Shown: positions 3,321 to 54,521 of the stretch, piece after piece
Layout of the letters: each line of letters opens with the position of its first letter
Numbering within the stretch: the stretch's first letter is position 1
NCBI GenBank assembly: GCA_016190375.1
Contig: JACPQR010000213.1
Span: forward strand, 3,340 to 67,339
Direction: 5' to 3'
Source of the DNA: Deltaproteobacteria bacterium
GTDB taxonomy: Bacteria; Myxococcota_A; Polyangia; JACPQR01
Length of the DNA stretch: 64,000 nucleotides
Made by a program: the position numbers and the translations under genes
The notes under the pieces: model-generated
What the model saw: the letters and a program-made list of their open reading frames with translations, nothing else
Told to the model about the DNA's origin: nothing
Databases searched by the model: none

Positions 3321-5081
3321 TTACTCGCGCTCCAGCCTGTCGGTGTCGATCGTCTCGCGGGTCACGTCGATCTGAAACGGCTCGGCCTCGCCTTCGCGCT
3401 GGACGAGCATCCGCACGCCCGATCCCTCGGTGCCGCGGATCCGGCCGACGACGTCGTCGAGGTCGAGGCCGTCGACCCGCTCGCCGTCGACCTCGAGGAT
3501 GAGATCGCCGGACTGAAGGCCGGCGCGGGATGCCGGCGTCTCCTGGAACAGGCCGAGCACCTTCACGCGGCCGTCGCGGACCGACAGCGTCATTCCCACA
3601 CCACCGAACACCCGCGGCTCGAGGGCGATCTCGCCCAGGTCCAGGTCCTGTCCCGTCGGGGCGAGCGCGACCGTCTCGGCGCGATGCCCTGGAGCGCGGA
3701 TCTCCAGCTCGGCGACGTCGAGCGGCAAGCCCGCGAGCACGAAGGCGCCTTCGGCGTCGGTGAGGACCGATGACGGGGCGCGACCGCCGCTGCCGCGAAG
3801 GAGTCGCGGTCGGACTCGGGCGCCTGGCACCGGCCCACCGGTGAACCGAGTGACTACCGTGCCGGTGGCCGCGAAGGGACCCGCCAGCCTGACCTCGACC
3901 CGCGCCAGGTCCTGACCGGCCTCGAGCGTGATTGCGACGCGACCCGCGTCCTCGTCCAGACGCGCGACGATCTCGTACTCGCCCGCGGACACGCCCGTCA
4001 GCGCGAACGCACCCGACTCGTCGGTGGAAGTGCCGGCCTCGCTCCGTCCGCCTTCCGCGAGCGCGATCGACGCGCCCGCCGCCGGCGAGCCGTCGCGCCC
4101 GCGCACCCATCCGGAGACCGACGAGGGGGCGGTGAGGACGAGCTCCACCCAGCGGGCTCCCGGCTCGGCGATCGCGGGCTGGCTATCCGCGAAGTCGGGG
4201 TGCGCCGCGACGAGCGAGAGCGCCTCGTCGGGCAGATCGGTCAGCGCGAACTCCCCGGCGGCGTCGGTGGTCGCCGTGGCGGCCGCCCCGGAGCGCGCGT
4301 GCGGGTTCGCGAGCGCTCGCACGGTCGCGCCGGCCACGAGACGCCGGCCGGGATCCAGTACGCGACCCCGAAGCTCGCGACCCACCGAGAGCTCCAGCAC
4401 GACGGAGGTGGTCCTGCCGGGCGAGAGCCGCGCCCGCTCCGTCGCCGGGGCGTAGCCGGGACAGGTCGCGGTCACGCCGACCCTCTCCTCGGGTCGCAGC
4501 GCGCCCCACAGCGCCTCGCCGCGCGCATCGGTCTCGAGCCCCTCCGCGAGGCCCGTCAGGCTGACGGTCGCGCCGGGCAGCCCGGCGCCACGCAGGTCGA
4601 CCACGCGCACCGCGAGCGCCGCGGCGCTCCCGAGCACGACGACCACGAGGCTCTCCGGGCCCTGGCCGTTCCTCACGACCAGCGGCCCCGCCGCCCCGCC
4701 CGGCGTGAACCTGGGATGCTCGGCCAGGACGAACCAGCGCCCGTCCTGGGGGACCTCGAACCGGAAGCCCCCGTCGGGTCCGCTGGTCGTGACGACCTCT
4801 TGCCCCGCTTCCCCACGCAAGACGACCCTCGCGCTTCCGACGCGCCGGTGCGTGGGATCCTCGACGCGACCGTCGACGAAGGCCGGGGAAGCGAGGATCG
4901 GGTCCTCGATCGGCTCCGCCGGCTGTGGACGAGGGCGCGCGCGGGGAAGCCTGAGATCGATCCTCCGCCGAGCGGCGGCCGCCGTAGCCTCGTGGCCCTC
5001 GGACGGCCAGACCGCGAAGCCGACCGCGACCGCGACGACCGCGGCGGCAACGAGCGCGATGGCGAGCCTACGGCGCGTCAC
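3321..5081 (-). CDS. carboxypeptidase-regulatory-like repeat protein with C-terminal PDZ domain
   Basis: Four repeats of the pattern ..VRGRVLD..G.P.AGA.V.L....T..DGAF.L..L..G.Y.L.A, then GMTLSVRDGRVKVLGLFQETPASRAGLQSGDLILEVDG (PDZ). N-terminal TM/signal. Confidence 0.75.
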   Translation of the reverse strand: MTRRRLAIALVAAAVVAVAVGFAVWPSEGHEATAAAARRRIDLRLPRARPRPQPAEPIEDPILASPAFVDGRVEDPTHRRVGSARVVLRGEAGQEVVTTSGPDGGFRFEVPQDGRWFVLAEHPRFTPGGAAGPLVVRNGQGPESLVVVVLGSAAALAVRVVDLRGAGLPGATVSLTGLAEGLETDARGEALWGALRPEERVGVTATCPGYAPATERARLSPGRTTSVVLELSVGRELRGRVLDPGRRLVAGATVRALANPHARSGAAATATTDAAGEFALTDLPDEALSLVAAHPDFADSQPAIAEPGARWVELVLTAPSSVSGWVRGRDGSPAAGASIALAEGGRSEAGTSTDESGAFALTGVSAGEYEIVARLDEDAGRVAITLEAGQDLARVEVRLAGPFAATGTVVTRFTGGPVPGARVRPRLLRGSGGRAPSSVLTDAEGAFVLAGLPLDVAELEIRAPGHRAETVALAPTGQDLDLGEIALEPRVFGGVGMTLSVRDGRVKVLGLFQETPASRAGLQSGDLILEVDGERVDGLDLDDVVGRIRGTEGSGVRMLVQREGEAEPFQIDVTRETIDTDRLERE

Positions 5082-5191: not shown

Positions 5192-6436
5192 ATGCGGCCC
5201 TTGCCCGAGGCCCAACGGAGGCGGAGGCGGCCGCTCGTCGGCGTCGTCGAGACCGCCGGTCGTGGAACGCGTGCGCGCGGAGACCCGCGGGTCGCGGCGC
5301 TCCTGCGCGCTGCGCTCGAGCGTGGATCCGAGCCCGAGACCCGCTCGCTGACGCACGGCTTCCACGCCTATCCGGCCCGGATGCATCCGGCGATCGCGCG
5401 GCACCTGGTCGCGACGACCCCGGCGGACGCCATCATCCTCGACCCGTTCGCGGGCAGCGGAACGGTGCTCGTGGAGGCGGCCGCCCACGGACGCCGCGCC
5501 ATCGGCGTCGACGCGAACCCGCTCGCGGTCCGCCTCGCTCGCCTGAAGACGTCGCGCTGGTCCCACGGCGACCTGGAACGGCTGATCGCGCATGCACGGG
5601 CGCTCGCGCGGCGCGCGTCCGGACGCGCGGCGGCGCAGAGGGGCACGCGGCTGCCCGGCTTCGATCCGCGCACGTTCGCTCCGCACGTCTTCCGCGAGCT
5701 CCACTTCCTCAGGGCGGAGATCGAGCGCGGGCCGGACCCCGCGATCCGCGAGGCTCTCTGGCTCGTCCTGTCGGCGATCGCGGTCAAGGTCTCGCTGAGG
5801 GTCGCCGACACGTCGGAGCTCGAGGCCCCGAAGCGGCTCGCGGCGGGGTTCGTGTCCCGGCACTTCGCCCGCAAGGCCGAGGAGCTCGCGCGGGGCCTGG
5901 GCGACCTCGCCCGAGCGATCCCCGAAGGCACGCCTGGGCCCGAGGTGATCGAAGGCGACGCGCGCGATCTCCCGCTGCCGCCCAGGGCCCGGATCGGACG
6001 CGTCATCACGTCTCCTCCCTACCCGGGCATCTACGACTACGTCGCCCACCACGCGCTGAGGATCGAGCTGCTCGGGATCGACGCGCGCCGCTTCAGCGAG
6101 GTGGAGATCGGGGCGCGCCGCCGGAGCCAGGCCTCCGGCGCCCTGGAGACGTGGCGGAACGATCTGGGGCGAGTGGCGAGATCGCTCGAGCGCCACCTCG
6201 AGCCGGGCGGCCTGGCGATATTCCTGATCGGCGACGGCATCGCGGGAGGCCAGCGCGTGCGCGGTGACGAGTCCCTGACGAACGCGTGCTCCGGCACCGG
6301 ACTCGAGGTTCGCGCGGTCGCCTGGCAGTCGCGGCCCTCGCGCTCGCGCCTGGAGCGCGCCGTCCACGGACCGACGAAGAACGAGTACCTGATTGCCCTC
6401 AGCGCCCGCGCCCGACCATCGGGAGGAAGTACCTGA
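5192..6436 (+). CDS. SAM-dependent amino-methyltransferase (DNA/RNA N6-A/N4-C/N2-G class; motif I DPFAGSGT, motif IV SPPY)
   Basis: HGFHAYPARMHP, DPFAGSGTVLVEAA and RVITSPPYPGIYDY motifs in gamma-class order. No restriction-enzyme partner nearby. Confidence 0.75.
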   Translation: MRPLPEAQRRRRRPLVGVVETAGRGTRARGDPRVAALLRAALERGSEPETRSLTHGFHAYPARMHPAIARHLVATTPADAIILDPFAGSGTVLVEAAAHGRRAIGVDANPLAVRLARLKTSRWSHGDLERLIAHARALARRASGRAAAQRGTRLPGFDPRTFAPHVFRELHFLRAEIERGPDPAIREALWLVLSAIAVKVSLRVADTSELEAPKRLAAGFVSRHFARKAEELARGLGDLARAIPEGTPGPEVIEGDARDLPLPPRARIGRVITSPPYPGIYDYVAHHALRIELLGIDARRFSEVEIGARRRSQASGALETWRNDLGRVARSLERHLEPGGLAIFLIGDGIAGGQRVRGDESLTNACSGTGLEVRAVAWQSRPSRSRLERAVHGPTKNEYLIALSARARPSGGST

Positions 6437-10163: not shown

Positions 10164-10907
10164 ATGCGCCACGCGATCGAGATCGGCTCGGGCGCCCTCG
10201 CGACGGCGCTCGTGTCGGGGGACGTCGCGGCGATCGGCTGCGCCGCGACCGCCCTGGCCGGGGCGGTGGGGCTGGGCGTCGCGTTCCCGTCTCTCGGCGT
10301 CTTCGGCCCGGTCGAGTCGCGCATCGCCGGCGAACCGGGGACGATCGCGCTCACGTTCGACGACGGGCCGGACCCGCGGTTCACGCCGCGCGTCCTCGAG
10401 GCGCTCGCCCGCGCCGGACATCTGGCGACGTTCTTTCTCGTGGGCCGGTCCCTCGAGCGTCACGCCGATCAAGCCCGAGCCATCCGGGACGCGGGCCACT
10501 CCCTCGGCGTCCACTCCTTCGCCCACTCGAGCTACAACGCGTTCTTCGGCAAGCCCCGCCTGCGCGCGGACTTCGAGGCCGCCGAGCGCGTCTGGGAAAC
10601 AGCTCTCGGCGGGCGGCCAGCTCTCTACCGCCCGCCCGTCGGGCTCGTGAACCCGAACGTGATGGCCGTCGCGCGGGAGCGCGGCTACCGGGTCGTCGCG
10701 TGGAGCCTGAGGGCGCTCGACGGAGTCCTCCTCTACGAGCCCGGCGCGATCCGCGCTCGAGTCAGGCGCGTGACGGAAGGCGACATCGTGCTCATGCACG
10801 ACGCCCTCCTCGGGGACAGCGACGCCGTCCCTCCGGGCGTCCTCGCCCTGCCCGGGATCCTCGACGACCTGGCCGCCCGCGGTCTCAGGAGCGTCGCGCT
10901 GGGCTGA
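10164..10907 (+). CDS. polysaccharide deacetylase (NodB homology domain)
   Basis: TFDDGPDPRFTPRVLEALARAGHLATFFLVG, HSFAH and RPP motifs. Start ATG 10164 chosen because the upstream ORF extension overlaps the divergent lipoprotein gene. Confidence 0.8.
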   Translation: MRHAIEIGSGALATALVSGDVAAIGCAATALAGAVGLGVAFPSLGVFGPVESRIAGEPGTIALTFDDGPDPRFTPRVLEALARAGHLATFFLVGRSLERHADQARAIRDAGHSLGVHSFAHSSYNAFFGKPRLRADFEAAERVWETALGGRPALYRPPVGLVNPNVMAVARERGYRVVAWSLRALDGVLLYEPGAIRARVRRVTEGDIVLMHDALLGDSDAVPPGVLALPGILDDLAARGLRSVALG

Positions 10908-11634
10908 CGATCACCCGCGCCTCGCCCCCTCCGAGCGGGCAGCGAGCGGCGAATGTCCGCGGCTCCTTCAGGCCCGACCGGATCGCGCGGACGAGCTCCA
11001 TCGCCGCTGCGGGCGCGAGAGATACGCAGGGGCCGGTCGCCGGCACGGCGGGCTCGAACGGCGCCTCGGAGATCGAGCACAGCGCGCCACGGGCGCCGTC
11101 CGGCTCGAGGAGCAACGCGGCCGCGCCCTCTGCCGGACCTTGGGCGACGAGGCCCGCGCCGGACAGCCACCGCGCCGACTCCTCCGAGGCCGCGTCGGCC
11201 ACGACCGCGAGGGCGGCGGGCGCCCGCCCACTCGCCACGAGCCGCCGGGCGGTGAGCACCGCGTCCAGCCCCGCGTGGAACCCCGACGTGAGCGCGAGGT
11301 TCGGCCCGGTCAGCCCGAAGGCGATCGCGACCTCTCCGGCGGCGGCGTTGGGCGAGGTGTAGGGGAAGCGCTTGGGATCCGCGAGCCGGGCGCCCCGCCG
11401 CATGATCTTCTCGTAGAAGCGGACGTTCGTCGTGAGCGAGGCGAGGGCGCTGCCGTAAACGACCGCGACGGGACGCTCGCGCCCCGCGGGCGCTCCGAGC
11501 GCCCTGTACGCGGCGAGGAGCGCGAGGTGACACACGCGGTCCGTTCGCGCGAGCCGCTCCGGAGCATCCGGCCACTCGGCGCGCACGTCGATCGCGCCGG
11601 GCTCCACGAGACCTGCGGCGGTGACGGCGGTCAC
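10885..11634 (-). CDS. ketosynthase-like chain-length-factor/beta subunit (KS fold lacking active-site Cys), GTG start overlapping KS stop (GTGA)
   Basis: Last 249 aa of the 1191-aa ORF (VTAVTAAGLVEPGAIDV..RFPYTSPNAAAGEVAIAFGLTGPNLALTSG..) has a thiolase-like fold but no Cys-His-His triad. It sits immediately 3' of the KS and is coupled to it. Confidence 0.6.
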   Translation of the reverse strand: MTAVTAAGLVEPGAIDVRAEWPDAPERLARTDRVCHLALLAAYRALGAPAGRERPVAVVYGSALASLTTNVRFYEKIMRRGARLADPKRFPYTSPNAAAGEVAIAFGLTGPNLALTSGFHAGLDAVLTARRLVASGRAPAALAVVADAASEESARWLSGAGLVAQGPAEGAAALLLEPDGARGALCSISEAPFEPAVPATGPCVSLAPAAAMELVRAIRSGLKEPRTFAARCPLGGGEARVIVSPARRS

Positions 11635-12791
11635 GGCGCTTCCAGGACGAGCGCGGCGTTCGAGCCACCGAAGCCGCTCGAGAGCTTCAGCGCCGTCCGG
11701 GCCCTCGGGAGCTCGATCGGCTCGCCCGTCGTGTAGTCGAGGTCGCAGTCCGGATCGACAGCATCGGACGTCAGGGTCGGGGGACCGACTCGCCGGCTCA
11801 TTGCCGCGAGCGTGACGACCGCCTCGATCAGACCCGCAGCGCCCAGCGTGTGGCCGACGATGGGCTTGATCGTGTGGATCGGGATCTCGCGCGCCCGCTC
11901 GCCCAGAGCGTCCTTGATCCCCCGCGACTCCATCGCGTCGTTGTGCACCGTGCCGGTGCCGTGCGCGCTGACGAGATCGATGTCGCGCGCCGTCCGGCCC
12001 GAGTCCGCGAGCGCCGCCCGGATCGCGCGTGACACGCCCGCTCCTTCGCGGTCCGGAGCCGTGATGTGCCGGGCGTCGCCGCTCATCCCGGCGCCGAGCA
12101 GCCGCCCGCGCCGGCCCGCCGATCGCCTCAGGACCACGGCCGCCGCGCCTTCCCCGAGCACCAGACCCGAGCGATCTGCCCTGAAGGGAGTCGGGATCCG
12201 AGGCGAGAGCGCCCCGAGCGCGTCGAAGCCCGCGTGCACGAAGTCGCACCACGCGTCGTAGCCGACCGCGATCGCGAGATCGACGGAGCCGCAGGCGACG
12301 AGATCCGCGGCGAGGCAGAGGGCGATCGCGCCCGAGGCGCAGGCCGAGCTGACGGTCTGGACTGGCCCGGCGATCCCCAGCGCGCGCGCCGCGAAGGCCA
12401 TCGGCGCGAAGTAGCTCGCCTCGCGCGAGCCGGCGTGCTCGGGATCGCGGAGGTGACCCACGAGCTCGGTCATCGCTCCCGACGAGGTCCCCACGACCAG
12501 CGCCGAGTTCGCTCCCCGCGCCGAGCCCAGCCCCGCGTCCTCGATCGCCATCCTCGCGGCGCAGAGGACCATCCTGTGAGGCCGGGGCGCCGCCAGCTCC
12601 TCGCCAGACAGCCAGCGCTCCTCGGCGAACGCCTCCACTCGCGCGACCAGGGCCGACTTGAAGCCCAGCGCGGCGAGCTCCGGCGACTCGCGGATCGCGC
12701 TCCGCTTCGCCAGCACCTCCTCGAGGATCGCAGCCGCCCCGACCCCCGCGGCCGAGATCGCCGACACGCCCTCGATTCCAACCGGCTCCAA
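11631..12791 (-). CDS. beta-ketoacyl-ACP synthase (KAS I/II family); start tentatively TTG at 12791
   Basis: Active-site motifs SSACASG (Cys), HGTGT (His), GHTLGAAG (His), SSGFGGSNAALVLE C-terminus. Upstream part of the ORF (G/A/R low complexity) judged non-coding. No ATG near the N-terminus. Confidence 0.75.
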   Translation of the reverse strand: MEPVGIEGVSAISAAGVGAAAILEEVLAKRSAIRESPELAALGFKSALVARVEAFAEERWLSGEELAAPRPHRMVLCAARMAIEDAGLGSARGANSALVVGTSSGAMTELVGHLRDPEHAGSREASYFAPMAFAARALGIAGPVQTVSSACASGAIALCLAADLVACGSVDLAIAVGYDAWCDFVHAGFDALGALSPRIPTPFRADRSGLVLGEGAAAVVLRRSAGRRGRLLGAGMSGDARHITAPDREGAGVSRAIRAALADSGRTARDIDLVSAHGTGTVHNDAMESRGIKDALGERAREIPIHTIKPIVGHTLGAAGLIEAVVTLAAMSRRVGPPTLTSDAVDPDCDLDYTTGEPIELPRARTALKLSSGFGGSNAALVLEAP

Positions 12792-12864
12792 CGGCCCCGC
12801 ATTGTTCAGCCCCGCGGGGCCGGGGGTCAAGGCTCGACTTCGCCATGATAAGCTCACCGGCGCG

Positions 12865-14409
12865 ATGCAGCCGCGCCCGCCTGCGGCGAGGGAACGCCGC
12901 CGAGTGCTCGTGGTCGCAGCCGTGTTGCTGGGCTGCTGCAGCGGCGGGGCACCGCAGAGCGAGCGCGTCGCGAGGGTCAGGCGCGTCGAGCTGCCGCCGC
13001 CGGCGCCGCCGGCGCCGCCCGCTCCGGCTCCCGCTCGACCGCCGGCGCCGCCCGCCCCCGCGGAGCTCCTGCACCTCGTTCCTTCCCAGGTCGTCGTGTC
13101 CTCGATCGCGGGAGCGGTCCTGCACACGGCCGAGCTGGTCGACGGCAACCTCGAGACCGCATGGAACTCCGCACAGGACGACGTGACGCGCTCGTGGATC
13201 GCGTTTCGCGTCCCGCGCGACGCTCGCGTGACCTCCCTTCGGCTCACGGCCGGGTTCGTGAAGGTGGACGGGCCGCGCGACTTCTTCACCGGGAACTACC
13301 GCGTTCGCAAGGTGCGCGTCAGCCGCGACGGCGAAGCGCTCGGGGAGCATGCCCTCGACCCGGACGACCGAGGCCTGCAGACGATCGCCGTCGCCGGCCC
13401 CGGCGGCGAGTACCGGATCGACTTCGTCGATCTCGTCGCAGGAACGAGCGAACGCTGGCGCCAGACGTGCGTCTCCGAGCTGGAAGTCCTCGGCGTGCCT
13501 GGCGCCGAGCGGCACGCGGCCCCGGCGCCTCCGCTCGTGCGGATTGGCTCGTTCGCCGGCATTCCGGCGGCCGACGGCCGGGTCACGCCGCTCGTGAGCG
13601 CCAGGGGCATGGTCGTCCAGAAACGTCCGGCGATCGACCGGCAGGACCTCGCCCGCATCCTGCAGGGGGCCTGGCTCACCCCGGCCGAGCCGCGCGCCTG
13701 GACGGTGCTGGGCGGCGACGGCGGTGACCGGGTCGCCCTCGTCTGGCTCACGCACCGGTCCGGCAGCGAGCGGGCGGCGGAGAGGAGACGGGCTCGGCGA
13801 GGTCTCCGACGGCTGCCCGCCGGCTCGGAGGGCTGCTCCTCGGAGGGCGCGTGCCCGGAGCTCCACGCCGCCAGGGTCTCCTTGCCCGCGCGGGGAGTCC
13901 CCCAGGTGGAGCGCCTGGTGGAGATCGGGGAGGACATGTGCGGCCCGGACACGTACCTGGAGCAGTCGATAGGGCATGCCGACCCCGCCTTCGGCGCCAA
14001 CTTCGCCGGTCGGATCGACCTGGAGGAGCTCGACGCCGACGGATCCGTCGAGGCGAGCTTTCGGGTCCGGTGGCAGACTACCCCTCAGTGCGCCGTGGGC
14101 TACAACGAGCTCCGGAGGCTTCTGATCCTCGATGTCGAGTCGTCGCAGGTCCAGCTCGAGGTCACGCTCTTCGAGCACCCGCAGGCCTCGAGCCTGCCGC
14201 GGGTGGACACTCGCCTCTCGCCGCGCGATCTCGATGGCGACGGCCATCCGGATTTCGAGATGAGGACGACCGAGCTCCTCCAGTGCTTCGGGGAAGAGCG
14301 GGGACCAGACTGCGGCTACCGTACGCAGGACAAGACCCTCCTCTACGATCCAGCGTCGGACCGCTGGATCGAGCGACCGCTCGCTCCTTCCCCAGCCTCC
14401 TCGCCCTGA
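12865..14409 (+). CDS. lipoprotein with discoidin/F5-8 type C-like (galactose-binding-like) domain
   Basis: Start MQPRPPAARERRRVLVVAAVLLGCCSGG (lipobox). Pro-Ala-rich linker, then GNLETAWNS..WIAFRVP discoidin-like signature. C-terminal D/E/Y-rich globular region. Confidence 0.6.
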   Translation: MQPRPPAARERRRVLVVAAVLLGCCSGGAPQSERVARVRRVELPPPAPPAPPAPAPARPPAPPAPAELLHLVPSQVVVSSIAGAVLHTAELVDGNLETAWNSAQDDVTRSWIAFRVPRDARVTSLRLTAGFVKVDGPRDFFTGNYRVRKVRVSRDGEALGEHALDPDDRGLQTIAVAGPGGEYRIDFVDLVAGTSERWRQTCVSELEVLGVPGAERHAAPAPPLVRIGSFAGIPAADGRVTPLVSARGMVVQKRPAIDRQDLARILQGAWLTPAEPRAWTVLGGDGGDRVALVWLTHRSGSERAAERRRARRGLRRLPAGSEGCSSEGACPELHAARVSLPARGVPQVERLVEIGEDMCGPDTYLEQSIGHADPAFGANFAGRIDLEELDADGSVEASFRVRWQTTPQCAVGYNELRRLLILDVESSQVQLEVTLFEHPQASSLPRVDTRLSPRDLDGDGHPDFEMRTTELLQCFGEERGPDCGYRTQDKTLLYDPASDRWIERPLAPSPASSP

Positions 14410-14512
14410 TCGGAAAGGCGCAATGTACTTCGTGAGCTGAACGGATGAGGCCACCGGCATCTCCGGCTCACGCCTGTTCGAGCTGATCGCCGATGGGCGG
14501 CTCGAGCTGCGC

Positions 14513-14679
14513 TAGGAGACTGGTGCAGAACTCCGGACCGAGCCGGGCGGTCGAGGCGGCCCCGGATCCTAGGCGCACCGACGACGCATATCCTTCGATA
14601 TTCGGAGGAGGCGCAACGACGGAGACGGGGGCGGATCGGCCGATCCGGCGACGGGAGCGAGTTCTGCACCAGTCTCCTA
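14513..14679. repeat. 167-bp palindromic element with perfect 21-bp terminal inverted repeats (taggagactggtgcagaactc ... gagttctgcaccagtctccta); candidate MITE/REP-like element or large structured RNA
   Basis: The arms at 14513-14533 and 14659-14679 are exact reverse complements. The interior carries nested palindromes (ggatcggccgatcc, cctagg, ggatcc, atatc-gaag-gatat). The right arm ends exactly on the OYE stop codon. Confidence 0.7.
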
Positions 14680-15882
14680 ACCGCCTTCAGCCCTCCTCCA
14701 CATCGTCCTGGCCGCGCTCATCAGCGTACGGACCCGGCTCAGCTTCGCGTCCGGCTCGAGCCCCCGCCCCATCCGGTGGAGCTGCTCGTGGTACCACCCG
14801 CCCTCCGTCGCCGCGGCGAGCACCGCGAGCCTCCCGCTCGGCGGCGTGGCCGCGGACGCCCGGGTCCTTCCGGCGAGGATCTGCATGGGGAGATCGGGCT
14901 CGAGCGCGATCGGCCGCGCGAGCCCGACGACGTCGGCGCTCCCTTCGAGGAGGACCTCTTCGATCACCCGAGGCGTGCGCAGCCCGCCGGTGAGCATCAG
15001 CGGGCAGCCCACCGCTCCCCTGATCTGCCGCGCGTAGTCCAGGAAGTGCGCCTCCCGCTCCCGCGTCGAGTCTCTGGGGGCCACGAACATCGCCGGTCGC
15101 TCGTAGGTGCCGCCGGAGATCTCCAGGAGCTCGACGCCCTCCTGGTCGAGCGTGCGCGCCACGACCGTCGCCTCCTCGTCGCCGAAGCCGCCGCGCAGGA
15201 AGTCCGACGAGTTCAGCTTCACCGACACGGCGAACCGGGGACCGACCGCCCTCCGCACGGCCCGGAGGCTCTCGACGAGGAAGCGCATCCGGTTCTCCAG
15301 AGGCCCGCCCCAGGCGTCGGTGCGGAGGTTCGTGAGAGGCGAGAGGAACTGGCTGAACAGGTAGCCGTGCGCCGCGTGGAGCTGCACGCCCGAGAAGCCG
15401 GCCTCCTGGGCCAGCCGGGCCGCGCCCGCGAAGTGGCCGACCAGCGCGGAGATCTCCTCACCCGTGAGGGCGCGCGGGGCCACGAACATCCCGCCCAGGC
15501 GCAGAGGCACCGCCGAGGGCGCTACCGGAGCGCCGTTGACCGACCGAGGGCTTTGACGGCCGGCGTGGTTGAGCTGGACGAAGGCGACGCCTGGCCCGGA
15601 GGCCGCGGCCGCCGCCCAGCGTCGGAACGCCTCGAGCGGCGGCCCCTTTCGCGGGCGCACGAGGACGTTCCCGGGCTCTCCGGCCCCGCCCGGCTCGACC
15701 ATGACGTTGCCAGTGATGAAGAGCCCCGCGCCGCCGCGCGCGAGCCTGCGATACAGCACCTCGAGCTCGGGCGACGGCTCACCCCCGGGTGTGGCCATCG
15801 TCTCGCTCATCGCCGCCTTGGCGATGCGGTTGGGCAGCGTGAGCCCCGAGCGGAGCGACAGCGGCCGGGCAAGCACGCTCAC
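14677..15882 (-). CDS. Old Yellow Enzyme family NADH:flavin oxidoreductase (FMN-dependent ene-reductase); GTG start overlapping upstream stop (GTGA)
   Basis: LTLPNRIAKAAMSE, HAAHGYLFSQFLSPLTNLRTDAWGG, LEISGGTYE and a TIM-barrel OYE pattern. The N-terminal 337 aa of the ORF-track ORF is an antisense artefact. Confidence 0.8.
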   Translation of the reverse strand: MSVLARPLSLRSGLTLPNRIAKAAMSETMATPGGEPSPELEVLYRRLARGGAGLFITGNVMVEPGGAGEPGNVLVRPRKGPPLEAFRRWAAAAASGPGVAFVQLNHAGRQSPRSVNGAPVAPSAVPLRLGGMFVAPRALTGEEISALVGHFAGAARLAQEAGFSGVQLHAAHGYLFSQFLSPLTNLRTDAWGGPLENRMRFLVESLRAVRRAVGPRFAVSVKLNSSDFLRGGFGDEEATVVARTLDQEGVELLEISGGTYERPAMFVAPRDSTREREAHFLDYARQIRGAVGCPLMLTGGLRTPRVIEEVLLEGSADVVGLARPIALEPDLPMQILAGRTRASAATPPSGRLAVLAAATEGGWYHEQLHRMGRGLEPDAKLSRVRTLMSAARTMWRRAEGG

Positions 15883-16559
15883 CGAGCGGTCTCCAGCGCC
15901 GGTCGCACCGCCCGAAGCACCTCCGAGGCGACCCCGAGCTGGCTCACGACGTCGCGGGTCAGGTCCTTCAGGCCCGCGGCCTCGAGCACCGGCGAGAGCC
16001 GCACAGCGCGGCAACCTCCAAACAACGAAGGCTCGAGCTCGAAGAGCGCGCCGGCCGCCCTGGCGATGGGCCCCTTGCCGTGCGTCATGTTGACGAGCAC
16101 GAGCCGGCCCCCGGGCCTGAGCACCCGCACGAGCTCGCCCACCACCGCCGGGAAGTCTGCTTCGGGGAGCAGGTCGAACATGTAGTTGTTGAACACCACG
16201 TCGAAGCTCGCATCGGGGAAGTCCAGCGCATAGGCGTCGCCCACGGCCAGCTCCCAGCTCCCGCCCGGAGCGACGCGCGCGGCCCGTCTCCGCGCTCGCG
16301 CGAGCATCGCCGGGGTGAGATCCACGCCCACGTTCCGGCCGCGGGGGTTGGCACGCAGGGTCTGGGCGAACAGGAGCCCCGTGCCCACCGCAACCTCGAG
16401 CACGGCCTCGCCATCCTGCAGGGCTGCACGCTCGAGCGCCAATCGCCGGGCGCGACCCTCGGCGAGCCCGGCCCAGAGATCGTACACGCTCGCCAGTCGG
16501 GTATAGACGCCAGGCACCTCGGGCCGGCCGAGGGTCTTCTCGAGAATCGCTTCGTTCAT
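15879..16559 (-). CDS. class I SAM-dependent methyltransferase (UbiE/COQ5-like)
   Basis: Motif I VLEVAVGTGLL, post-I acidic residue VGVDLTPAML, motif LRPGGRLVL. Start at M179 of the ORF, ATG overlapping the ArsR stop (ATGA). Confidence 0.8.
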   Translation of the reverse strand: MNEAILEKTLGRPEVPGVYTRLASVYDLWAGLAEGRARRLALERAALQDGEAVLEVAVGTGLLFAQTLRANPRGRNVGVDLTPAMLARARRRAARVAPGGSWELAVGDAYALDFPDASFDVVFNNYMFDLLPEADFPAVVGELVRVLRPGGRLVLVNMTHGKGPIARAAGALFELEPSLFGGCRAVRLSPVLEAAGLKDLTRDVVSQLGVASEVLRAVRPALETAR

Positions 16560-16930
16560 CGGGTCCTTCCTTTCGGTTCGTGTTTCGAGACCGGGCAGCA
16601 GGCCTCGATGGAGTCCGCGAGCTGTCGCAGCGTGCCGACCAGCGCGGCGTTGCGCACGCGGTACAGGAGCTCCTTGCCGCGGCGCTCTCCCTCCACCACC
16701 CCCGCGTCGCGCAGGGTCGCGAGGTGGCGCGACACGACCGAGAGGTCCACCCGGCAGCAGCCCGACTGCGCGATCTCGGAGACGCTCCGAGGGGAGCGCT
16801 GCGCCATGAGCCAGCCGAGGATGGCGACGCGCGTCGGGTCGCACAGCGCGCGCCAGAAGCCCGGGTCGAGGAGAGAGAGACCGGCGCGCCCACGTTTGTA
16901 CGCTTGCGTCACGGTGCAAATGAGTAGCAA
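16556..16930 (-). CDS. ArsR/SmtB family metalloregulator (multiple Cys pairs)
   Basis: ALCDPTRVAILGWL winged-HTH signature. Cys pairs CC at mid-protein and C-terminus (SGCCRVDL, EACCPV) suggest thiol-based metal(loid) sensing. Confidence 0.75.
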   Translation of the reverse strand: MLLICTVTQAYKRGRAGLSLLDPGFWRALCDPTRVAILGWLMAQRSPRSVSEIAQSGCCRVDLSVVSRHLATLRDAGVVEGERRGKELLYRVRNAALVGTLRQLADSIEACCPVSKHEPKGRTR

Positions 16931-17064
16931 CGCGCGGACGGCCTGTCAACCCCCACCTCGCGGTCCCGCGGATTCGAGGTCGGACCCGACCGCAGACCCC
17001 GAGGCTCGAGGGACCCATCGGGAAAGCTGCCCCGGGCGCCCTGACGTGATAGGGATCGGCTCCG

Positions 17065-25292: not shown

Positions 25293-27887
<2,595 letters not shown>

Positions 27888-30251: not shown

Positions 30252-31960
30252 GTGAGCCTCGCTGTGCCCTCCTCACGGGAGTCACAGGGGCGCTTCCAGG
30301 TGCTCCACCGGATCGCGTCCGGCGGAATGGCCGAGGTGTTCCTCTCGCGCTTCGTCGGGCCCCAGGGCTTCGAGCGGCTGGTGGCGCTCAAGAAGGTCCG
30401 TGCGCGATTCACCGAGGACCCGAGGTTCGTCGAGCGGCTGGTGTCCGAGGCGAGGATCATGGTCCGGCTGTCCCACGGGAACATCTGCCAGGTCCTCGAT
30501 TTCGGGATCATGGACGGGCAGTACTTCCTCGCGATGGAGCACGTCGCGGGCTGCGACCTGGGCATGCTCATGCACGGCCTCGCCCGGCTGGACGAGGCCT
30601 TCCCGCCCGTGCTCGCCGCCTACGTCGTCGCCGAGATCTGCCGAGGGCTCGACTACGCCCACCGCCGGACCGACGAGGCCGGCAGGCCCCTCGGGATCGT
30701 CCACCGGGACGTCACGCCCGAGAACGTCCTCATCAGCTACGACGGCGAGGTCAAGCTCACCGACTTCGGGATCTCGCAGGCACGCGGAGTCGAGATGCCC
30801 GCCGAGCGCGAGGGCGTCGTCCTCGGAAAGGCCGCGTACCTCGCGCCGGAGCAGCTCGCGGGCGGAAGGGGCGACGCCCGCACGGACGTCTTCTCCGTCG
30901 GGATCCTCCTCTGGGAGATGCTCGTCGGCCTGCCGCTCTTCCGCCGCTCGACCGACCGCGAGACGATCGAGGCGGTCGGGCGCCTGCAGATCCAGCCGCC
31001 CTCACGGCTGAGGCCGGGGATCCCGCCGGAGCTCGACGCCATCACGCTGCGGGCCCTCGCGCGACGGCCCGGGGATCGGCATCCGGCGGCGGCAGCGCTG
31101 CTGGAGGACCTCTCGCGCTTCGTGGCGCTGCGAGCGCCGGGCATGACCGGCGCGACGCTCGCCGAGCTGGTCGCGCGGCAGATGCCGAGGCGCGGCAACA
31201 CCGACGAGACCCTGGCGACCGCGCAGGTCACCGTCCCCCGCGAGGTCGTCTCGCTCGCCGTCGACCCGACGCCCGCCCCCGAGCCAGGCATGCCGCCGGC
31301 GCTGCCTGCGCTCCCACAGCGGCCGAGCACGGTCCCCTTCGAGGCACCGCTCAGACAGCGCACCGGCCGCGCGCGGGCCGTCGCGGTCGGGGTCGCGACC
31401 TTCGCCGTGGTCGCGGTCGGAATGGCCATCGCGCTCACACGCCAGCCCAGCCGCTCCCTGACGGCGGTGCAGCTCGGCGCCCCCGCGGCGACGTCACCCG
31501 ATGCGGGAGGGACGGCTCATCCGGCCGAGATCGGGCCCGTCGACCCGCCGCGCGCCCAGGATGCCGCTCCTCGTCCGGGCGCGGTGCCCGGCGCACCGCC
31601 GCCCTCCTCGGCGCCGGTCGCTGTCGAGGGCGCCGAGCCGCCAGGCGCCCCGACGAAGGCTCCGGCGAGGGGACCCGACGAGCCGCGGGTGCGTCGAACC
31701 GGCGTCGAGCGCCCCGAACCTCCGCCGGGCCGACCGCCGGCGGCTGGAGGGTTCATCAACGTCAACGCCACTCCCTGGGGCAAGGTCTACGTGGACGGAC
31801 GGATCATGGCGAACGAGACCCCGGCGAGGCTGCCTGTGAGCGCGGGGCCTCATTCGGTGAAGGTCTACTTCGTGACGGCGGCGAGGTACTCTCCCGCCAG
31901 GCAGGTCGTGATAGAGGCTGGTCAGACGAGGGGTATGATGTTCGTGCTCTCGGAGTCGCC

Positions 31961-31964
<4 letters not shown>
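30252..31964 (+). CDS. Ser/Thr protein kinase (Hanks type) with TM segment and C-terminal PEGA domain; tentative GTG start
   Basis: GGMAEVF...VALKKV (subdomains I-II), HRDVTPENVL, DFG, APE. C-terminal FINVNATPWGKVYVDGR..TPARLPVSAGPHSVKV is a PEGA domain. Confidence 0.85.
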
Positions 31965-33319: not shown

Positions 33320-34783
33320 TTGTCGGTCCCGAGGAATGCTCACGTCACGGGTCCGTTGCGGCACGGCGAGATGCTTGGCCGCTACCGAATACTCGGTCAC
33401 ATCGCAGACGGAGGGATGGCCTCGGTCTACCTCGCCGAGCTCGAAGGGCCGGGTACGTTTCACAAGCACGTCGCCCTCAAGGTGATCCATCCGCACCTCA
33501 GAAGGGATCCGACCTTCGTCAGGATGTTCGGCGACGAGGCGCTCATTGCGGCGCGCCTGCACCATCCGAACATCGTGCAGACGTTCGACCTCGTCGAGTC
33601 CAACGGGCACCTCGCGATCGCGATGGAGTACGCGCCGGGCCTGCCGGTGAGCGCGCTCCGAAACGGCCACCTGATCGATCCCGGGGCCGAGCTGGTCGCG
33701 TACATCGGTGCCGAGGCGGCGGCCGCGCTCGACCATGCGCACAACCTGACCGACGCGCTCGGCCATCCGCTCCACATCGTGCACCGCGACGTCTCGTCGT
33801 CGAACGTGCAGATCGGGCTCGACGGGCGAGTCCGTCTGGTGGACTTCGGTATCGCGCGAGCGAGCGACTGCGCCGTCATGACCACGGCCGGCATGATCAA
33901 GGGGACGCTCGCGTACATCGCCCCCGAGCGATTCACGACCGGAGCGGCCACGCCGCAAACGGACGTGTGGTCCCTCGGCGTGGTTCTCTGGGAGGTCCTC
34001 GCGAGACGCCGGCTCTTCAGACGCCCGACCGACGCCGACACCGCCGCGGCCGTCCTGATGGACGAGGTTCCGCCGCTCCTGCAGATCCGACCGGAGATCC
34101 CGGCCAAGGTGTCCGCGGTCGTCCACCGTGCGATCGAGCGGGACCCGGCCAGGCGGTTCGCCAGCGCCGCCGAGCTCGAGAGCGCCTTGCGCCAGCACCA
34201 CCCGGCCAAGATCGAAGAGGTCCTCGAGCCGCTCCGCGCCGCGCTCGCGCCGTTCCGGCAGGATCAGCTCGGCAGGGTGCGCCGCCTCCTCGGGCGCGGC
34301 GAGCCGGAGGCCGGGACGGTGACGGCCAGCCCTTCGCCCGGCCTCGCGCCCGCCGCGGAGGAGCCCTCGTGGACGCCGGCGCCTGCCCGATGGAATGGAA
34401 AGCGCCGCTTCGTCGCGCTCGCGCTCGTCCTCGTCGCCGTGACCGCGGCCTGGCTTCTGGTTCGAGCGACGCGCACCGACCCGGAGCGGGCGACAGCGCA
34501 GGGCGCCCCGGCGGCGGATTCGAGCTCCGACCCGGGTCGCCGCAAGAGCGCTCGTGAGCGCGCGCCCGACTCGCCTTTGGTCGAATCGACGGCAACCGAG
34601 CCGGGGGCCGACCGACCGACCGCGCCGCCGACCGACCGCGCCGCTCCCCCTCCGGCGACCTCGGTCTCGAGACGGGCCGGCTGGCCGCGCCCCGCCGGGT
34701 TGACCTACGACCACGACGTCTACCGGCGTCGCTCGAAGAACCGGTCGTCAAGGACGGCGGGCCCGGCGACCCCGCGCCCATGA
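33320..34783 (+). CDS. Ser/Thr protein kinase (Hanks type) with C-terminal TM and low-complexity tail
   Basis: GGMASVYLA..VALKV, HRDVSSSNV, DFGIAR, APE. Start may instead be M18 (33371). Confidence 0.8.
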   Translation: MSVPRNAHVTGPLRHGEMLGRYRILGHIADGGMASVYLAELEGPGTFHKHVALKVIHPHLRRDPTFVRMFGDEALIAARLHHPNIVQTFDLVESNGHLAIAMEYAPGLPVSALRNGHLIDPGAELVAYIGAEAAAALDHAHNLTDALGHPLHIVHRDVSSSNVQIGLDGRVRLVDFGIARASDCAVMTTAGMIKGTLAYIAPERFTTGAATPQTDVWSLGVVLWEVLARRRLFRRPTDADTAAAVLMDEVPPLLQIRPEIPAKVSAVVHRAIERDPARRFASAAELESALRQHHPAKIEEVLEPLRAALAPFRQDQLGRVRRLLGRGEPEAGTVTASPSPGLAPAAEEPSWTPAPARWNGKRRFVALALVLVAVTAAWLLVRATRTDPERATAQGAPAADSSSDPGRRKSARERAPDSPLVESTATEPGADRPTAPPTDRAAPPPATSVSRRAGWPRPAGLTYDHDVYRRRSKNRSSRTAGPATPRP

Positions 34784-45621: not shown

Positions 45622-46497
45622 TCAAATGCTCCCGACATCCTTGCGGGGCAACCAGCCCTCTCGCCCCTCGGGCCCTCGCACCAGGACCCACGTTCCCTCC
45701 CGGCCCAGGACGCGAACGCGCGTGCCCTCTACGAGCGAGAACGACTCCTCGAAGTCCGCCCCCGGGCCGGTCGAGCCGTGCGCCTCCTCGGCCACGATGA
45801 TCGCCTCGTGCGCGCCATGGTCGGTCCACACCTTCGTGGCGAAGAGCGCGCCGGACGCGACGGTCATGAGCGCCATGACGGCCAGGGCGATCCCGACCGC
45901 TAGCCGCGAGACCTCCTGGTGCGCCATGCGCCTTGCAAAGACGAGCGAGAAGAAGGCCAGGTACGAGAACAGGAACGTGACGGCGACCGCGTCGGAGGTC
46001 AGGCCGTCCGCAAGCGCCCTGAAGAAGGGCGGGCGCTCCTCGACGCTCGCCTCGAGGTGGCTCGCGACGAGCTTGCGCGCTAGCTGGGAACGAACGAGCC
46101 GCAGGTTGTGTCGCACATCCTCGTCGTCCGGCCGCTGGCGCAGCGCCCTCTCGTAGAACTGGATCGCGCGGCCATGACGACCGAGGCGAGCGTATGCGGT
46201 GCCGAGGTCGTACGAGACGTCGGGATCGTCGACGCCGCTCTCGACGAGCTCTCGGTAGCCCTGAATCGCGCGTTCGACGTCGTGTGAGTAGAAGGCCTGG
46301 CTCGCTCGAAGGAACTGGTCCTGGAGCGTGTCTGCCTCGGCCGGCTGCCCGAGCGCAAGGAGCGAGAACAAAAGGACCCCACCCCAGACGAGCTTCGCTC
46401 GCTGGGGACCCCGGGCCGCGCGGCTCAAGGTCCTGGCTCCGCGGAGGGCGTCACGCGGTCGAGCGTCGCGAGCAGGCGCCTCGCGCGATCGAGGCAC
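45622..46497 (-). CDS. batE: BatE-like protein (TPR + C-terminal SH3b domain)
   Basis: TPR repeats, central TM helices, C-terminal GTRVRVLGREGTWVLVRGPEGREGWLPRKDV (SH3b). Last gene of the bat operon. N-terminus overlaps the batD 3' end by 72 nt, so the start is uncertain. Confidence 0.65.
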   Translation of the reverse strand: MPRSREAPARDARPRDALRGARTLSRAARGPQRAKLVWGGVLLFSLLALGQPAEADTLQDQFLRASQAFYSHDVERAIQGYRELVESGVDDPDVSYDLGTAYARLGRHGRAIQFYERALRQRPDDEDVRHNLRLVRSQLARKLVASHLEASVEERPPFFRALADGLTSDAVAVTFLFSYLAFFSLVFARRMAHQEVSRLAVGIALAVMALMTVASGALFATKVWTDHGAHEAIIVAEEAHGSTGPGADFEESFSLVEGTRVRVLGREGTWVLVRGPEGREGWLPRKDVGSI

Positions 46498-49189: not shown

Positions 49190-49194
49190 CCCCT

Positions 49195-49299
49195 GAGCCT
49201 CCCGAGCGCCTTCGAGCGCTTCCTCCTGACCGCTTCTCCGAGCACCGCGTCCGCGAGGATCAGGAGGAGCGCGGGAAGAAGGAAGACTTGGTACTTCTC
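49195..49299. repeat. 105-bp perfect direct repeat, copy 1 (duplicated batB 3' end; in-frame remnant ending in TGA that overlaps batC ATG)
   Basis: gagcctcccgagcgccttcgagcgcttcctcctgaccgcttctccgagcaccgcgtccgcgaggatcaggaggagcgcgggaagaaggaagacttggtacttctc is identical to 49431-49535. Confidence 0.85.
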
Positions 49300-49421
49300 G
49301 CCATCTCCGCGGTGGGGCTGCGCCCCCCCGCACCCCCCGCTCTCGCGCGATGACGGCGCTTGGTCGCTACGGCGGAGTGAATCCACCTTCGCTCCCTCCT
49401 GCTCCGCTCGTGCGCGCACCC

Positions 49422-53401: not shown

Positions 53402-53402
<1 letters not shown>
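52518..53402 (-). CDS. DUF58 domain protein (MoxR-associated, VWA-like)
   Basis: GQYQSVFKGRGMAFSEVRQYQMGDDVRFIDWNVSAR..VMLVVDVSASEQFGS is typical DUF58. GTG start overlapping the moxR stop. Confidence 0.85.
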
Positions 53403-54397
<995 letters not shown>

Positions 54398-54521
54398 CCT
54401 GTGTCCTCGCGCCCTTTCCGCTGGCGCTAGCTGGCTTTCCACGACAAAGCTCCTTCGCGTATCACGGCGGTACCCTGGTTTCAACCTCACGGACTGAAAC
54501 GCTATTCCTGCGCGCCAGGTC

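What the first reader, a model, noticed from the sequence alone, without database searches (positions are those of the whole stretch)
14513..14679. 167-bp element with perfect 21-bp terminal inverted repeats abutting a stop codon
taggagactggtgcagaactc (14513-14533) and its exact reverse complement (14659-14679) flank 125 nt that is itself full of short perfect palindromes (ggatcggccgatcc, cctagg, ggatcc, atatc-gaag-gatat). It sits in the 3' region between convergent genes, and the right arm ends exactly on the OYE TAG. The architecture resembles a MITE/REP-BIME-type element or a large bidirectional terminator or structured RNA. It does not fit a simple rho-independent terminator because the loop is far too long.
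Basis: seen in the sequence. Interest (0 to 1): 0.55.

Follow-up and report, generated by a model that had tools for sequence, protein, structure and literature searches.

The report
Small palindromic mobile element (MITE-like)
The 167-bp hairpin-shaped sequence at the end of the OYE gene is most likely a small non-autonomous mobile DNA element, because a near-identical copy sits in frame inside an unrelated gene elsewhere; this is an ordinary kind of bacterial repeat, seen here in an uncultured myxobacterium-like genome.

Summary
There is a perfect 21-bp inverted repeat at 14513-14533 and 14659-14679. The 125 nt between the arms is an imperfect palindrome. The right arm ends on the OYE stop codon, between convergent genes.

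It is not a locus-specific terminator. A six-frame translation search found a second copy, 49/55 residues identical. It lies in frame inside a FecR/TPR anti-sigma-like gene (P0121) on another contig from the same NCBI accession block. Six homologues of that protein all lack the 55 residues. Similarity starts and stops exactly at the repeat ends. A third, diverged copy appears in a soil-metagenome protein fragment.

Both insertion sites read C-TA-R, and the net insertion is 165 bp (55 codons). That fits a TA or YTAR target duplication, as in IS630- or IS5-type elements. Such sites are very rare in this 70% GC window, which may explain landing on a TAG stop codon. The two copies differ by a compensatory A-T to G-C change in the arms.

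Best reading: a low-copy palindromic MITE-like element, a new member of a known kind. The mobilising enzyme is unknown. No DNA of other copies could be retrieved. Any terminator or RNA-stability effect is inferred only.

The parts
14513..14679 (.). The whole 167-bp palindromic element. It has no start-to-stop gene of its own, and four of its six frames are free of stop codons.
   Evidence: Homology to the P0121 insert runs from nt 14514 to 14678, that is from end to end.
14513..14533 (+). Left terminal inverted repeat, TAGGAGACTGGTGCAGAACTC. It is 52% GC in a 70% GC window.
14659..14679 (-). Right terminal inverted repeat, the exact reverse complement of the left arm. Its last 3 nt (14677-14679, CTA) are the OYE TAG stop on the - strand.
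14513..14514 (.). Left TA, a candidate target-site duplication. With its flanks it reads CTAG (14512-14515).
   Evidence: Read from the sequence; YTAR census. The inference rests on the TA and YTAR duplications of IS630 and IS5 (PMC2170065, PMC5009759).
14678..14679 (.). Right TA, a candidate target-site duplication. With its flanks it reads CTAA (14677-14680), which is TTAG on the OYE strand.
14534..14658 (.). Interior of 125 nt, an imperfect palindrome. It includes the central hairpin ATATCCTTCGATAT (14588-14601) and the palindrome GGATCGGCCGATCC (14633-14646). It also includes the direct repeats AGGCGCACCGACG (14571-14583) and AGGCGCAACGACG (14609-14621).
14677..15882 (-). Context: the OYE-family NADH:flavin oxidoreductase gene (P0001, 401 aa). 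It is the last gene of an arsR-HTH / SAM-methyltransferase / OYE gene string. The element begins at its stop codon.
12658..14409 (+). Context: the convergent upstream gene. Its product is proline-rich and appears secreted, with no Pfam match. Its true start is uncertain, probably after about 12850. Its stop lies 103 nt before the element.

Best explanation
The 167-bp sequence is one copy of a small, non-coding, palindromic mobile element of the MITE type.

Proposed mechanism (inferred): a transposase encoded elsewhere in the genome recognises the 19-21-bp terminal inverted repeats. It inserts the element into a TA that lies within a YTAR tetranucleotide (CTAG or CTAA) and duplicates the target. 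The most likely enzyme is a DDE transposase of the IS630/Tc1-mariner or IS5 type.

Why it sits on the stop codon (inferred): TA is three-fold under-represented in this 70% GC genome, and YTAR occurs only about once per 4-5 kb. TAG and TAA stop codons are therefore among the few available targets. The element starts TA-G, so it rebuilt the OYE TAG stop and left the protein unchanged.

Why it can live inside genes: the net insertion is 165 bp, which is 55 codons. Four frames carry no stop codon. The element can therefore sit in frame inside a gene, as its second copy does in a FecR/TPR gene.

Shown here:
- The anatomy of the element.
- A second copy at an unrelated locus, with homology that ends exactly at the repeat ends.
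- Absence of the insert from homologues of the host protein.
- A compensatory change in the arms between the two copies.

Inferred, not shown:
- The target duplication.
- The class of enzyme.
- Any activity today.
- Any effect of the roughly 80-bp hairpin on the 3' ends or stability of the OYE-operon transcript and the convergent transcript.
For: (1) The repeat is perfect and far beyond chance.

(2) A concatenated six-frame translation of the element found P0121 at E = 4.6e-21. phmmer of the frame +1 peptide against 1.84 billion representative proteins gave P0121 at E = 4.3e-22, matching query 1-55 to protein residues 231-285 at 89% identity.

(3) P0121 is a 413-aa protein with a FecR domain at 86-145 and a TPR region at 301-347. 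It comes from a 20-kb contig. The window's OYE protein comes from a 90-kb contig. The accessions are MBI2893709.1 and MBI2897734.1, and both are labelled 'MAG: Deltaproteobacteria bacterium'.

(4) All six full-length homologues of P0121 (336-364 aa, 53-62% identity) lack exactly these residues. They align well on both sides of the gap.

(5) Similarity between the window and P0121 begins at RRLVQ and ends at HQSP, which are the repeat ends. The flanks are unrelated.

(6) The flanks read gcgC|TA...TA|Acc in the window. From the flanking Pro and Arg codons of P0121 they would read cC|TA...TA|Gr. Both are CTAR, and the net gain is 55 codons.

(7) This matches published targets. IS630 and ISY100 insert into TA and duplicate it, and IS630 prefers the TA in CTAG (PMC2170065). 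IS5 duplicates YTAR (PMC5009759). The IS5-derived MITEPsy1 targets CTAG or YTAA (PMC3189936).

(8) These sites are scarce in the window. There are 497 TA dinucleotides against 1398 expected. Only 15 YTAR sites occur in 64 kb, and 3 of them are in or at the element.

(9) The N-to-S and V-to-A differences between the copies map to nt 14530 (A to G) and 14662 (T to C). These two positions pair with each other in the stem. The chance of such a compensatory pair among six random substitutions is 0.022.

(10) A third, diverged copy is seen in P0141. It is 70% identical over 41 residues, with E = 4.8e-7, and comes from a protein-level assembly of soil run SRR6185503.

(11) The OYE C-terminus is not truncated relative to its homologues.
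Against: - No DNA of any other copy could be retrieved. Copies 2 and 3 are known only from translations.
- The outermost bases of copy 2 (T before AGG, A before G) are inferred from Pro and Arg codons, not read.
- TA is itself palindromic, so a TA duplication cannot be told apart from a 2-bp longer inverted repeat. Under a 4-bp model the window's flanks (CTAG and CTAA) differ at one base.
- The exact 18-mer of the arm gave only chance hits in 185,579 species-representative genomes and 241 million metagenome contigs. The family is therefore rare or narrow. The host MAG is in neither collection, so its copy number is untested.
- No transposase with matching ends was found. None of 50 predicted window proteins is a transposase, RAYT or integrase.
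- A compensatory change in both arms is not what a plain DDE-transposase binding site predicts. It points to selection on the hairpin, or to conversion within it.
- It is not proven that the two contigs belong to one genome.
Confidence: 0.75

Rival explanations
1. REP/BIME or REPIN-type element. The two arms would be a REP and an inverted REP, each a small hairpin preceded by a tetranucleotide, joined by a hairpin-forming spacer. The unit would move as single-stranded DNA through a RAYT (TnpA-REP, HUH tyrosine transposase), not a DDE transposase.
For: - The architecture matches that described for REPINs: two highly conserved inverted ends, a less conserved spacer that still pairs, and common compensatory changes across the hairpin (PMC3116915).
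- A compensatory change is seen between the two copies here.
- Four of the six inferred differences add a pair to, or keep one in, copy 2's predicted hairpin; one more (nt 119) only forms a G-U wobble there, in a refolded stretch that no longer pairs nt 51.
- Each arm reads YTAG followed by a small bulged hairpin, GGAG-A-CTG-GTG-CAG-AA-CTCC. This recalls the GTAG-plus-palindrome form of REPs (PMC8266576).
Against: - The tetranucleotide is CTAG on one side and TTAG on the other, not GTAG. It also differs between the two ends of the same copy.
- The arm hairpin is weak: -3.9 kcal/mol, z = -2.5, and 4 of 200 shuffles fold as well.
- REPs are typically extragenic and present in hundreds of copies. 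Here there is one copy in 64 kb, one copy inside a gene, and no relatives in large DNA scans.
- No RAYT (Y1 transposase) was found among 50 window proteins.
Confidence: 0.13
2. A locus-specific functional hairpin. It would act as a bidirectional transcription terminator, a barrier, or an RNA-stability element for the convergent OYE operon and the upstream gene, having evolved in place.
For: - It lies between convergent 3' ends.
- It forms a very stable hairpin on both strands.
- No other terminator-like site is found in 12000-17000.
- Reviews note that MITE and REP hairpins can act on transcripts (PMC10969869, PMC8266576).
Against: - The same sequence sits in frame inside a coding region elsewhere, where it cannot be a terminator.
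- No T or U run follows the stem on either strand.
- No Rfam family matches.
- The perfect part of the stem is at the base, where the terminating ribosome would open it. It is also the least GC-rich part.
- As a consequence of the insertion, such an effect remains possible.
Confidence: 0.05
3. Not an element at all. The 55-residue segment would be native coding sequence of a FecR-like gene, and the window holds a decayed fragment of such a gene. Alternatively, the palindrome would be an assembly artefact.
For: - The only other near-identical copy known is inside a coding sequence.
- The window comes from a metagenome-assembled genome.
Against: - The segment is absent from all six homologues of P0121.
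- Homology stops exactly at the inverted-repeat ends.
- A native coding segment is not expected to be a 167-nt palindrome with 21-bp perfect ends.
- The palindrome is internal to a 90-kb contig and is imperfect inside, unlike fold-back assembly artefacts.
- Two independent contigs carry it with six differences between them.
Confidence: 0.03

Closest known systems
MITEs derived from IS630/Tc1-mariner-family insertion sequences (TA target, TA duplication; IS630 itself prefers the TA in CTAG; PMC2170065)
   Same: - Small size and no transposase gene.
- Roughly 20-bp terminal inverted repeats.
- TA at both ends.
- Both insertion sites read C-TA-R.
- Net gain equals the element plus 2 bp.
   Different: - No IS630-family element with these ends has been found.
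- The TA duplication cannot be separated from the repeat itself.
- The arms co-vary between copies, which a protein-binding site alone does not explain.
MITEPsy1 of Pseudomonas syringae (IS5-family derived, 100 nt, 18-nt inverted repeats, inserts in CTAG or YTAA with a 4-nt duplication; PMC3189936) and the IS5 YTAR target (PMC5009759)
   Same: - The same target motif. Flanks are CTAG and CTAA in the window, and CTAG and CTAG are inferred for copy 2.
- The ends begin GAG/GGAG, as in the IS5-family ends listed in that paper.
- The net length arithmetic is the same (161 + 4 = 165).
   Different: - The window's two 4-mers differ at one base.
- There is no sequence similarity to MITEPsy1.
- The element is longer and palindromic throughout.
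Rickettsia palindromic elements (RPEs; review PMC10969869)
   Same: - A palindromic repeat of about 150 bp.
- It can sit in frame inside protein-coding genes and add a peptide segment without destroying the reading frame.
- No transposase is known.
   Different: - The host lineage is unrelated (GC-rich and myxobacterium-like, against AT-rich Rickettsia).
- Sequence similarity was not tested.
- Only one intragenic copy is known here, against dozens for RPEs.
- This element has clear terminal repeats and a recognisable target motif.
REPINs / BIMEs (PMC3116915, PMC8266576)
   Same: - Two conserved inverted ends joined by a hairpin-forming spacer.
- Compensatory changes across the hairpin.
- Typical position at gene 3' ends.
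   Different: - No GTAG tetranucleotide.
- Weak self-pairing of each arm.
- Low copy number.
- One copy inside a gene.
- No RAYT seen in the window.

Membership tests
Prokaryotic MITE | Small size (tens to a few hundred bp) with no transposase gene | tested here: met
   The element is 167 bp. Translations of ORFs overlapping it (14343-14669 on the - strand, 14441-14515 on the + strand) have no Pfam match.
Prokaryotic MITE | Terminal inverted repeats | tested here: met
   The arms match at 21 of 21 positions. In simulations the longest perfect repeat was 12-18.
Prokaryotic MITE | Target-site duplication flanking the element | tested here: inconclusive
   TA is present at both ends, but TA is palindromic and could be part of the repeat. 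The 4-mers CTAG and CTAA match at 3 of 4 positions. The in-frame gain of 55 codons in P0121 fits the element plus a duplicated TA or YTAR.
Prokaryotic MITE | Several copies at unrelated loci | tested here: met
   A second copy lies inside P0121, on a different contig with different flanks. A third, diverged copy is in P0141. All of this is seen only at the protein level. The copy number in the host genome is unknown.
Prokaryotic MITE | Presence/absence difference (an empty site) between related sequences | tested here: met
   Six homologues of P0121 lack residues 231-285. These are distant homologues (53-62% identity), not strains of one species.
Prokaryotic MITE | A cognate autonomous IS with the same terminal repeats | not testable with these tools
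   The host MAG is in none of the DNA collections. No transposase was found among 50 window proteins.
IS630/Tc1-mariner-derived MITE | Insertion into TA with a 2-bp TA duplication | tested here: inconclusive
   Two of two sites are compatible, CTAA and CTAG. The criterion is taken from PMC2170065. The flanks of copy 2 are inferred from codons.
IS5-derived MITE | A 4-bp YTAR duplication | tested here: inconclusive
   The window has CTAG on the left and CTAA on the right. Both are YTAR but they are not identical. The criterion is taken from PMC5009759 and PMC3189936.
REP/BIME/REPIN | A conserved GTAG tetranucleotide 5' of each REP | tested here: not met
   The tetranucleotides are CTAG (left) and TTAG (right, on the - strand). 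The criterion is taken from PMC8266576.
REP/BIME/REPIN | Each arm is itself a stable 20-50 nt palindrome | tested here: inconclusive
   Each arm forms a bulged 7-bp hairpin of -3.9 and -3.1 kcal/mol, with z = -2.5 and -1.8.
REP/BIME/REPIN | High copy number, extragenic location and an associated RAYT gene | tested here: not met
   There is one copy in 64 kb and one copy inside a coding sequence. No Y1-transposase match was found in the window. The whole genome could not be tested.
Rickettsia palindromic elements | In-frame insertion into protein-coding genes | tested here: met
   The P0121 insert is 55 residues long, and the downstream TPR region stays in frame. This shows a shared behaviour only.
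Rickettsia palindromic elements | Sequence membership in one of the RPE families | not tested
   No RPE library was available. Host lineage and base composition make membership implausible.
Intrinsic (rho-independent) terminator | A short GC-rich hairpin followed by a T run | tested here: not met
   There are 0 terminator-like sites in 12000-17000. No T run follows either end of the element.
Any Rfam RNA family | A covariance-model match | tested here: not met
   There are 0 matches at E <= 1 in 13500-15700.
Integron attC site | RYYYAAC at the 5' end and GTTRRRY at the 3' end, with an integrase nearby | tested here: not met
   By inspection, the GTTAGGA-like motif lies at the 5' end and the complementary motif at the 3' end on either strand. 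That is the reverse of the attC order. No integrase is present in the window.

The most novel reading that the evidence does not exclude
The element could be a myxobacterial counterpart of the Rickettsia palindromic elements. It would be a coding-compatible selfish hairpin: a 165-nt net insertion with four stop-free frames. It would colonise the very rare TA/YTAR sites of a GC-rich genome, namely stop codons and tolerant protein linkers. Its two arms would co-evolve through compensatory change. That would mean the hairpin itself, as single-stranded DNA or RNA, is the unit that is selected or mobilised, rather than a pair of transposase-binding sites.
Probability: 0.2. Interest if true: 0.5.

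Novelty: new member of a known kind. Interest (0 to 1): 0.3.

Why it matters
The finding mainly affects how this locus should be read. The hairpin after the OYE gene should be annotated as a mobile repeat. It should not be treated as a dedicated regulatory RNA or terminator.

Three smaller points may interest people who work on mobile DNA:
- In a roughly 70% GC genome, a TA/YTAR-targeting element has few landing sites. Stop codons become natural targets, which explains the striking "ends exactly on the TAG" observation.
- The element is tolerated in frame inside a FecR/TPR anti-sigma-like protein. It adds 55 residues at the boundary between the linker and the C-terminal domain. This behaviour is best known from Rickettsia.
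- The two copies differ by a compensatory change in the terminal repeats, which hints that pairing of the arms matters.

I found no paper in the held library describing MITEs in myxobacteria; one search combining the two terms returned a single paper with one passing mention of each term, which was not opened.

Tried and rejected
**DNA searches for more copies**
- Exact-pattern scans with the 18-mer GGAGACTGGTGCAGAACT returned 5 single hits in genome contigs and 22 in metagenome contigs. All were in unrelated contigs, nearly all of them low-GC. None extended convincingly beyond the seed, so they are chance matches. With hindsight, copy 2 carries AGCTC rather than AACTC in the arm, so this 18-mer would have missed it anyway.
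- Two viral-contig scans found nothing.
- blastn and tblastn against plasmids found nothing.
- An Rfam scan found nothing.

**Attempts to retrieve contig DNA**
- The look-up of encoding contigs has no record for P0001, P0121 or P0141. No DNA of other copies could be read.
- Loci of the P0121 homologues P0122 and P0126 (L028-L030, 28 kb in total) contain no element-like sequence.

**Readings and hits set aside**
- P0140, a hit, is a translated tandem repeat and was discarded.
- A strand bias from G-U pairs, which would point to an RNA function, was checked. Both strands use 2 G-U pairs, so there is no signal.
- Truncation of the OYE gene by the insertion was checked and not found.
- The attC reading was rejected on motif order.
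- The 24-codon frame that runs into the left TAG (14441-14515) looks loosely like the end of an excisionase-type helix-turn-helix. It has no Pfam match and no start codon, so it was not pursued.
- A hand alignment suggests that P0141 also covers the left arm in another frame after a 1-nt deletion. tblastn did not report this, so I do not rely on it.

Full report
**Observation**

The sequence read and the repeat finder confirm a perfect 21-bp inverted repeat. Its arms are at 14513-14533 and 14659-14679, separated by 125 nt.
- The 21-mer is found nowhere else in the window, even allowing three mismatches. None is expected by chance.
- The longest perfect inverted repeat within 300 nt is 21 here. 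In 30 composition-matched simulations it was 12-18.

The whole element is an imperfect palindrome that folds into one long hairpin. The energy is -114.6 kcal/mol with z = -8.5 on the + strand and z = -6.9 on the - strand. The arms are 52% GC, the interior 72% and the window 70%.

**Context**

A GC3 frame plot and Pfam scans define the neighbourhood.
- A + strand gene of unknown function ends at 14409.
- On the - strand lies a string of three genes: an arsR-type regulator (16556-16930), a SAM methyltransferase (15879-16487) and an OYE-family oxidoreductase (14677-15882).
- The OYE protein is 100% identical to P0001, a 401-aa protein from an NCBI metagenome-assembled "Deltaproteobacteria bacterium", on a 90-kb contig.
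- The OYE C-terminus is not shortened relative to 14 homologues.
- The best other OYE homologue is only 63% identical. No close relative of this genome is in the protein collection.

**Is it repeated?**

DNA scans with an exact 18-mer of the arm gave only chance matches in 185,579 species-representative genomes and 241 million metagenome contigs. The host MAG itself is not in those collections, so they say nothing about copy number in the host.

I then translated the element in six frames; four of them are open. I searched the concatenated peptides against 5.8 billion protein clusters.
- One protein matched at E = 4.6e-21. This is P0121, a 413-aa FecR-domain protein from a 20-kb contig of an NCBI "Deltaproteobacteria bacterium" MAG.
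- A search of the 55-residue frame +1 peptide against 1.84 billion representatives, made without a word index, confirmed the match. It scored E = 4.3e-22 at 89% identity, aligning query 1-55 with protein 231-285.
- The accessions of P0121 and the OYE protein are 4025 apart in one NCBI block. They belong to the same submission and possibly the same genome.

**The second copy is an insertion**

- P0121 has a FecR domain at 86-145 and a TPR region at 301-347.
- Six full-length homologues (336-364 aa, 53-62% identity) align well on both sides. All lack residues 231-285.
- The similarity between P0121 and the window starts at RRLVQ and ends at HQSP. These are the two ends of the inverted repeat, and the flanks are unrelated.

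A discrete 165-nt unit bounded by the repeat is therefore present at two unrelated places. One is a stop codon and the other is in frame inside a gene. This rules out a locus-specific terminator or RNA as the element's identity.

A third, more diverged copy appears in P0141. It is 70% identical over 41 residues at E = 4.8e-7. It comes from a protein-level assembly of soil run SRR6185503, and no DNA is available.

**Insertion sites**

- In the window the flanks read gcgC-TA[...]TA-Acc.
- In P0121 the flanking Pro and Arg codons imply cC-TA[...]TA-Gr. The outer T and A are inferred, not read.
- Both sites are CTAR.
- The element with both TAs is 167 bp, so one duplicated TA gives a net gain of 165 bp. 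A 161-bp core plus a duplicated 4-mer gives the same figure. This equals the 55 codons gained in P0121.

This fits published targets. IS630-family elements insert into TA and duplicate it, and IS630 prefers the TA in CTAG (PMC2170065). IS5 duplicates YTAR (PMC5009759). The IS5-derived MITEPsy1 targets CTAG or YTAA (PMC3189936).

Such sites are scarce here. TA occurs 497 times against 1398 expected. There are only 15 YTAR sites in 64 kb, three of them in or at the element. A TAG stop codon preceded by T is one of the few targets on offer. Because the element begins TA-G, it restores the stop. That is my explanation for the "ends exactly on the TAG" observation. It is an inference.

**Differences between the copies**

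Six amino-acid differences separate the two copies, and each maps to a single nucleotide change.
- Two of them (N to S and V to A) fall at 14530 (A to G) and 14662 (T to C). These positions pair with each other in the stem, so both copies keep a perfect 21-bp repeat. The chance of such a compensatory pair among six random substitutions is 0.022, or 0.007 for a pair within the arms.
- Two others create Watson-Crick pairs in copy 2, one creates a G-U pair and one breaks a pair.
- The most parsimonious reconstruction of copy 2 folds better than the window copy, at -120.0 against -110.5 kcal/mol.

The family consensus therefore looks like a better palindrome than the window copy, and pairing of the arms appears to be maintained. 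A simple pair of transposase-binding sites does not predict this. It is a known feature of REPINs (PMC3116915), which I keep as the main rival.

Several points count against the REPIN reading:
- The tetranucleotide is CTAG or TTAG rather than GTAG (PMC8266576).
- The arm's own hairpin is weak.
- The copy number is low.
- One copy lies inside a gene.
- No RAYT is present in the window.

**What was not found**

- No Rfam family matches.
- There is no terminator-like site and no T run after the stem.
- None of 50 predicted window proteins is a transposase, RAYT or integrase.
- Nothing was found in plasmids or viral contigs.
- Contig DNA for P0001, P0121 and P0141 is not on record.

**Verdict**

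The best explanation is a low-copy palindromic MITE-like element, with confidence about 0.75. It probably targets TA within YTAR and is mobilised by an unidentified IS630- or IS5-type transposase. A REPIN-like single-strand mechanism is the main alternative.

An effect of the roughly 80-bp hairpin on the 3' ends of the convergent transcripts is plausible by analogy with other bacterial repeats (PMC10969869). It has not been tested.

This is a new member of a known kind and its interest is modest. The points worth following are the in-frame intragenic copy, which behaves like the Rickettsia palindromic elements, and the compensatory change in the arms.

Noticed in passing
window 14621-14635: A third, partial copy of the arm lies inside the element: GGAGACGGGGGCGGA, 12 of 15 identical to 14515-14529 and in direct orientation. 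It can pair with the right arm to form an alternative local hairpin around GGATCGGCCGATCC (D4 and I10). It may be chance in GC-rich DNA.
   Followed up: no
window 14441-14515 (+): A 24-codon open frame, TDEATGISGSRLFELIADGRLELR, runs into the TAG of the left arm. It loosely resembles the end of an excisionase/AlpA-type helix-turn-helix. It has no start codon and no Pfam match. It could be a relic or chance.
   Followed up: partly
window 13900-14700: GC content dips to 0.65-0.69, against 0.73-0.79 on either side. The dip covers the last roughly 500 bp of the upstream gene, the spacer and the element.
   Followed up: no
window 10885-12860 (-): Two adjacent beta-ketoacyl-synthase-like ORFs. One is complete, with both N- and C-terminal domains. 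The other matches only part of the N-terminal domain. They lie divergent from the unknown secreted protein gene.
   Followed up: no
window 25293-27887 (-) and 59645-62227 (+): Two ClpB-type AAA+ chaperone paralogues lie within 35 kb of each other.
   Followed up: no
window 46425-54442 (-): A BatD / VWA / VWA / unknown / DUF58 / MoxR-AAA gene string, resembling a Bat-type aerotolerance operon. Three Ser/Thr protein kinase genes lie at 30252-31964, 33416-34783 and 36181-38157. This is typical of Myxococcota.
   Followed up: no
window 5381-6436 (+): This ORF matches only the last roughly 50 positions of the N6_N4 DNA-methylase profile, at its own N-terminus. My start call may be wrong, or the gene may be truncated or fused.
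   Followed up: no
window 4670-4693 / 4772-4795: A 24-nt inverted repeat, 88% complementary, lies inside the gene for a protein with four CarboxypepD_reg repeats. It probably reflects the repeated domains.
   Followed up: no
P0140 (ENA, 606-kb contig): A 649-aa "protein" made of a roughly 50-residue tandem repeat matched the element peptide weakly in six stretches. I judged it a translated tandem DNA repeat unrelated to the element.
   Followed up: partly
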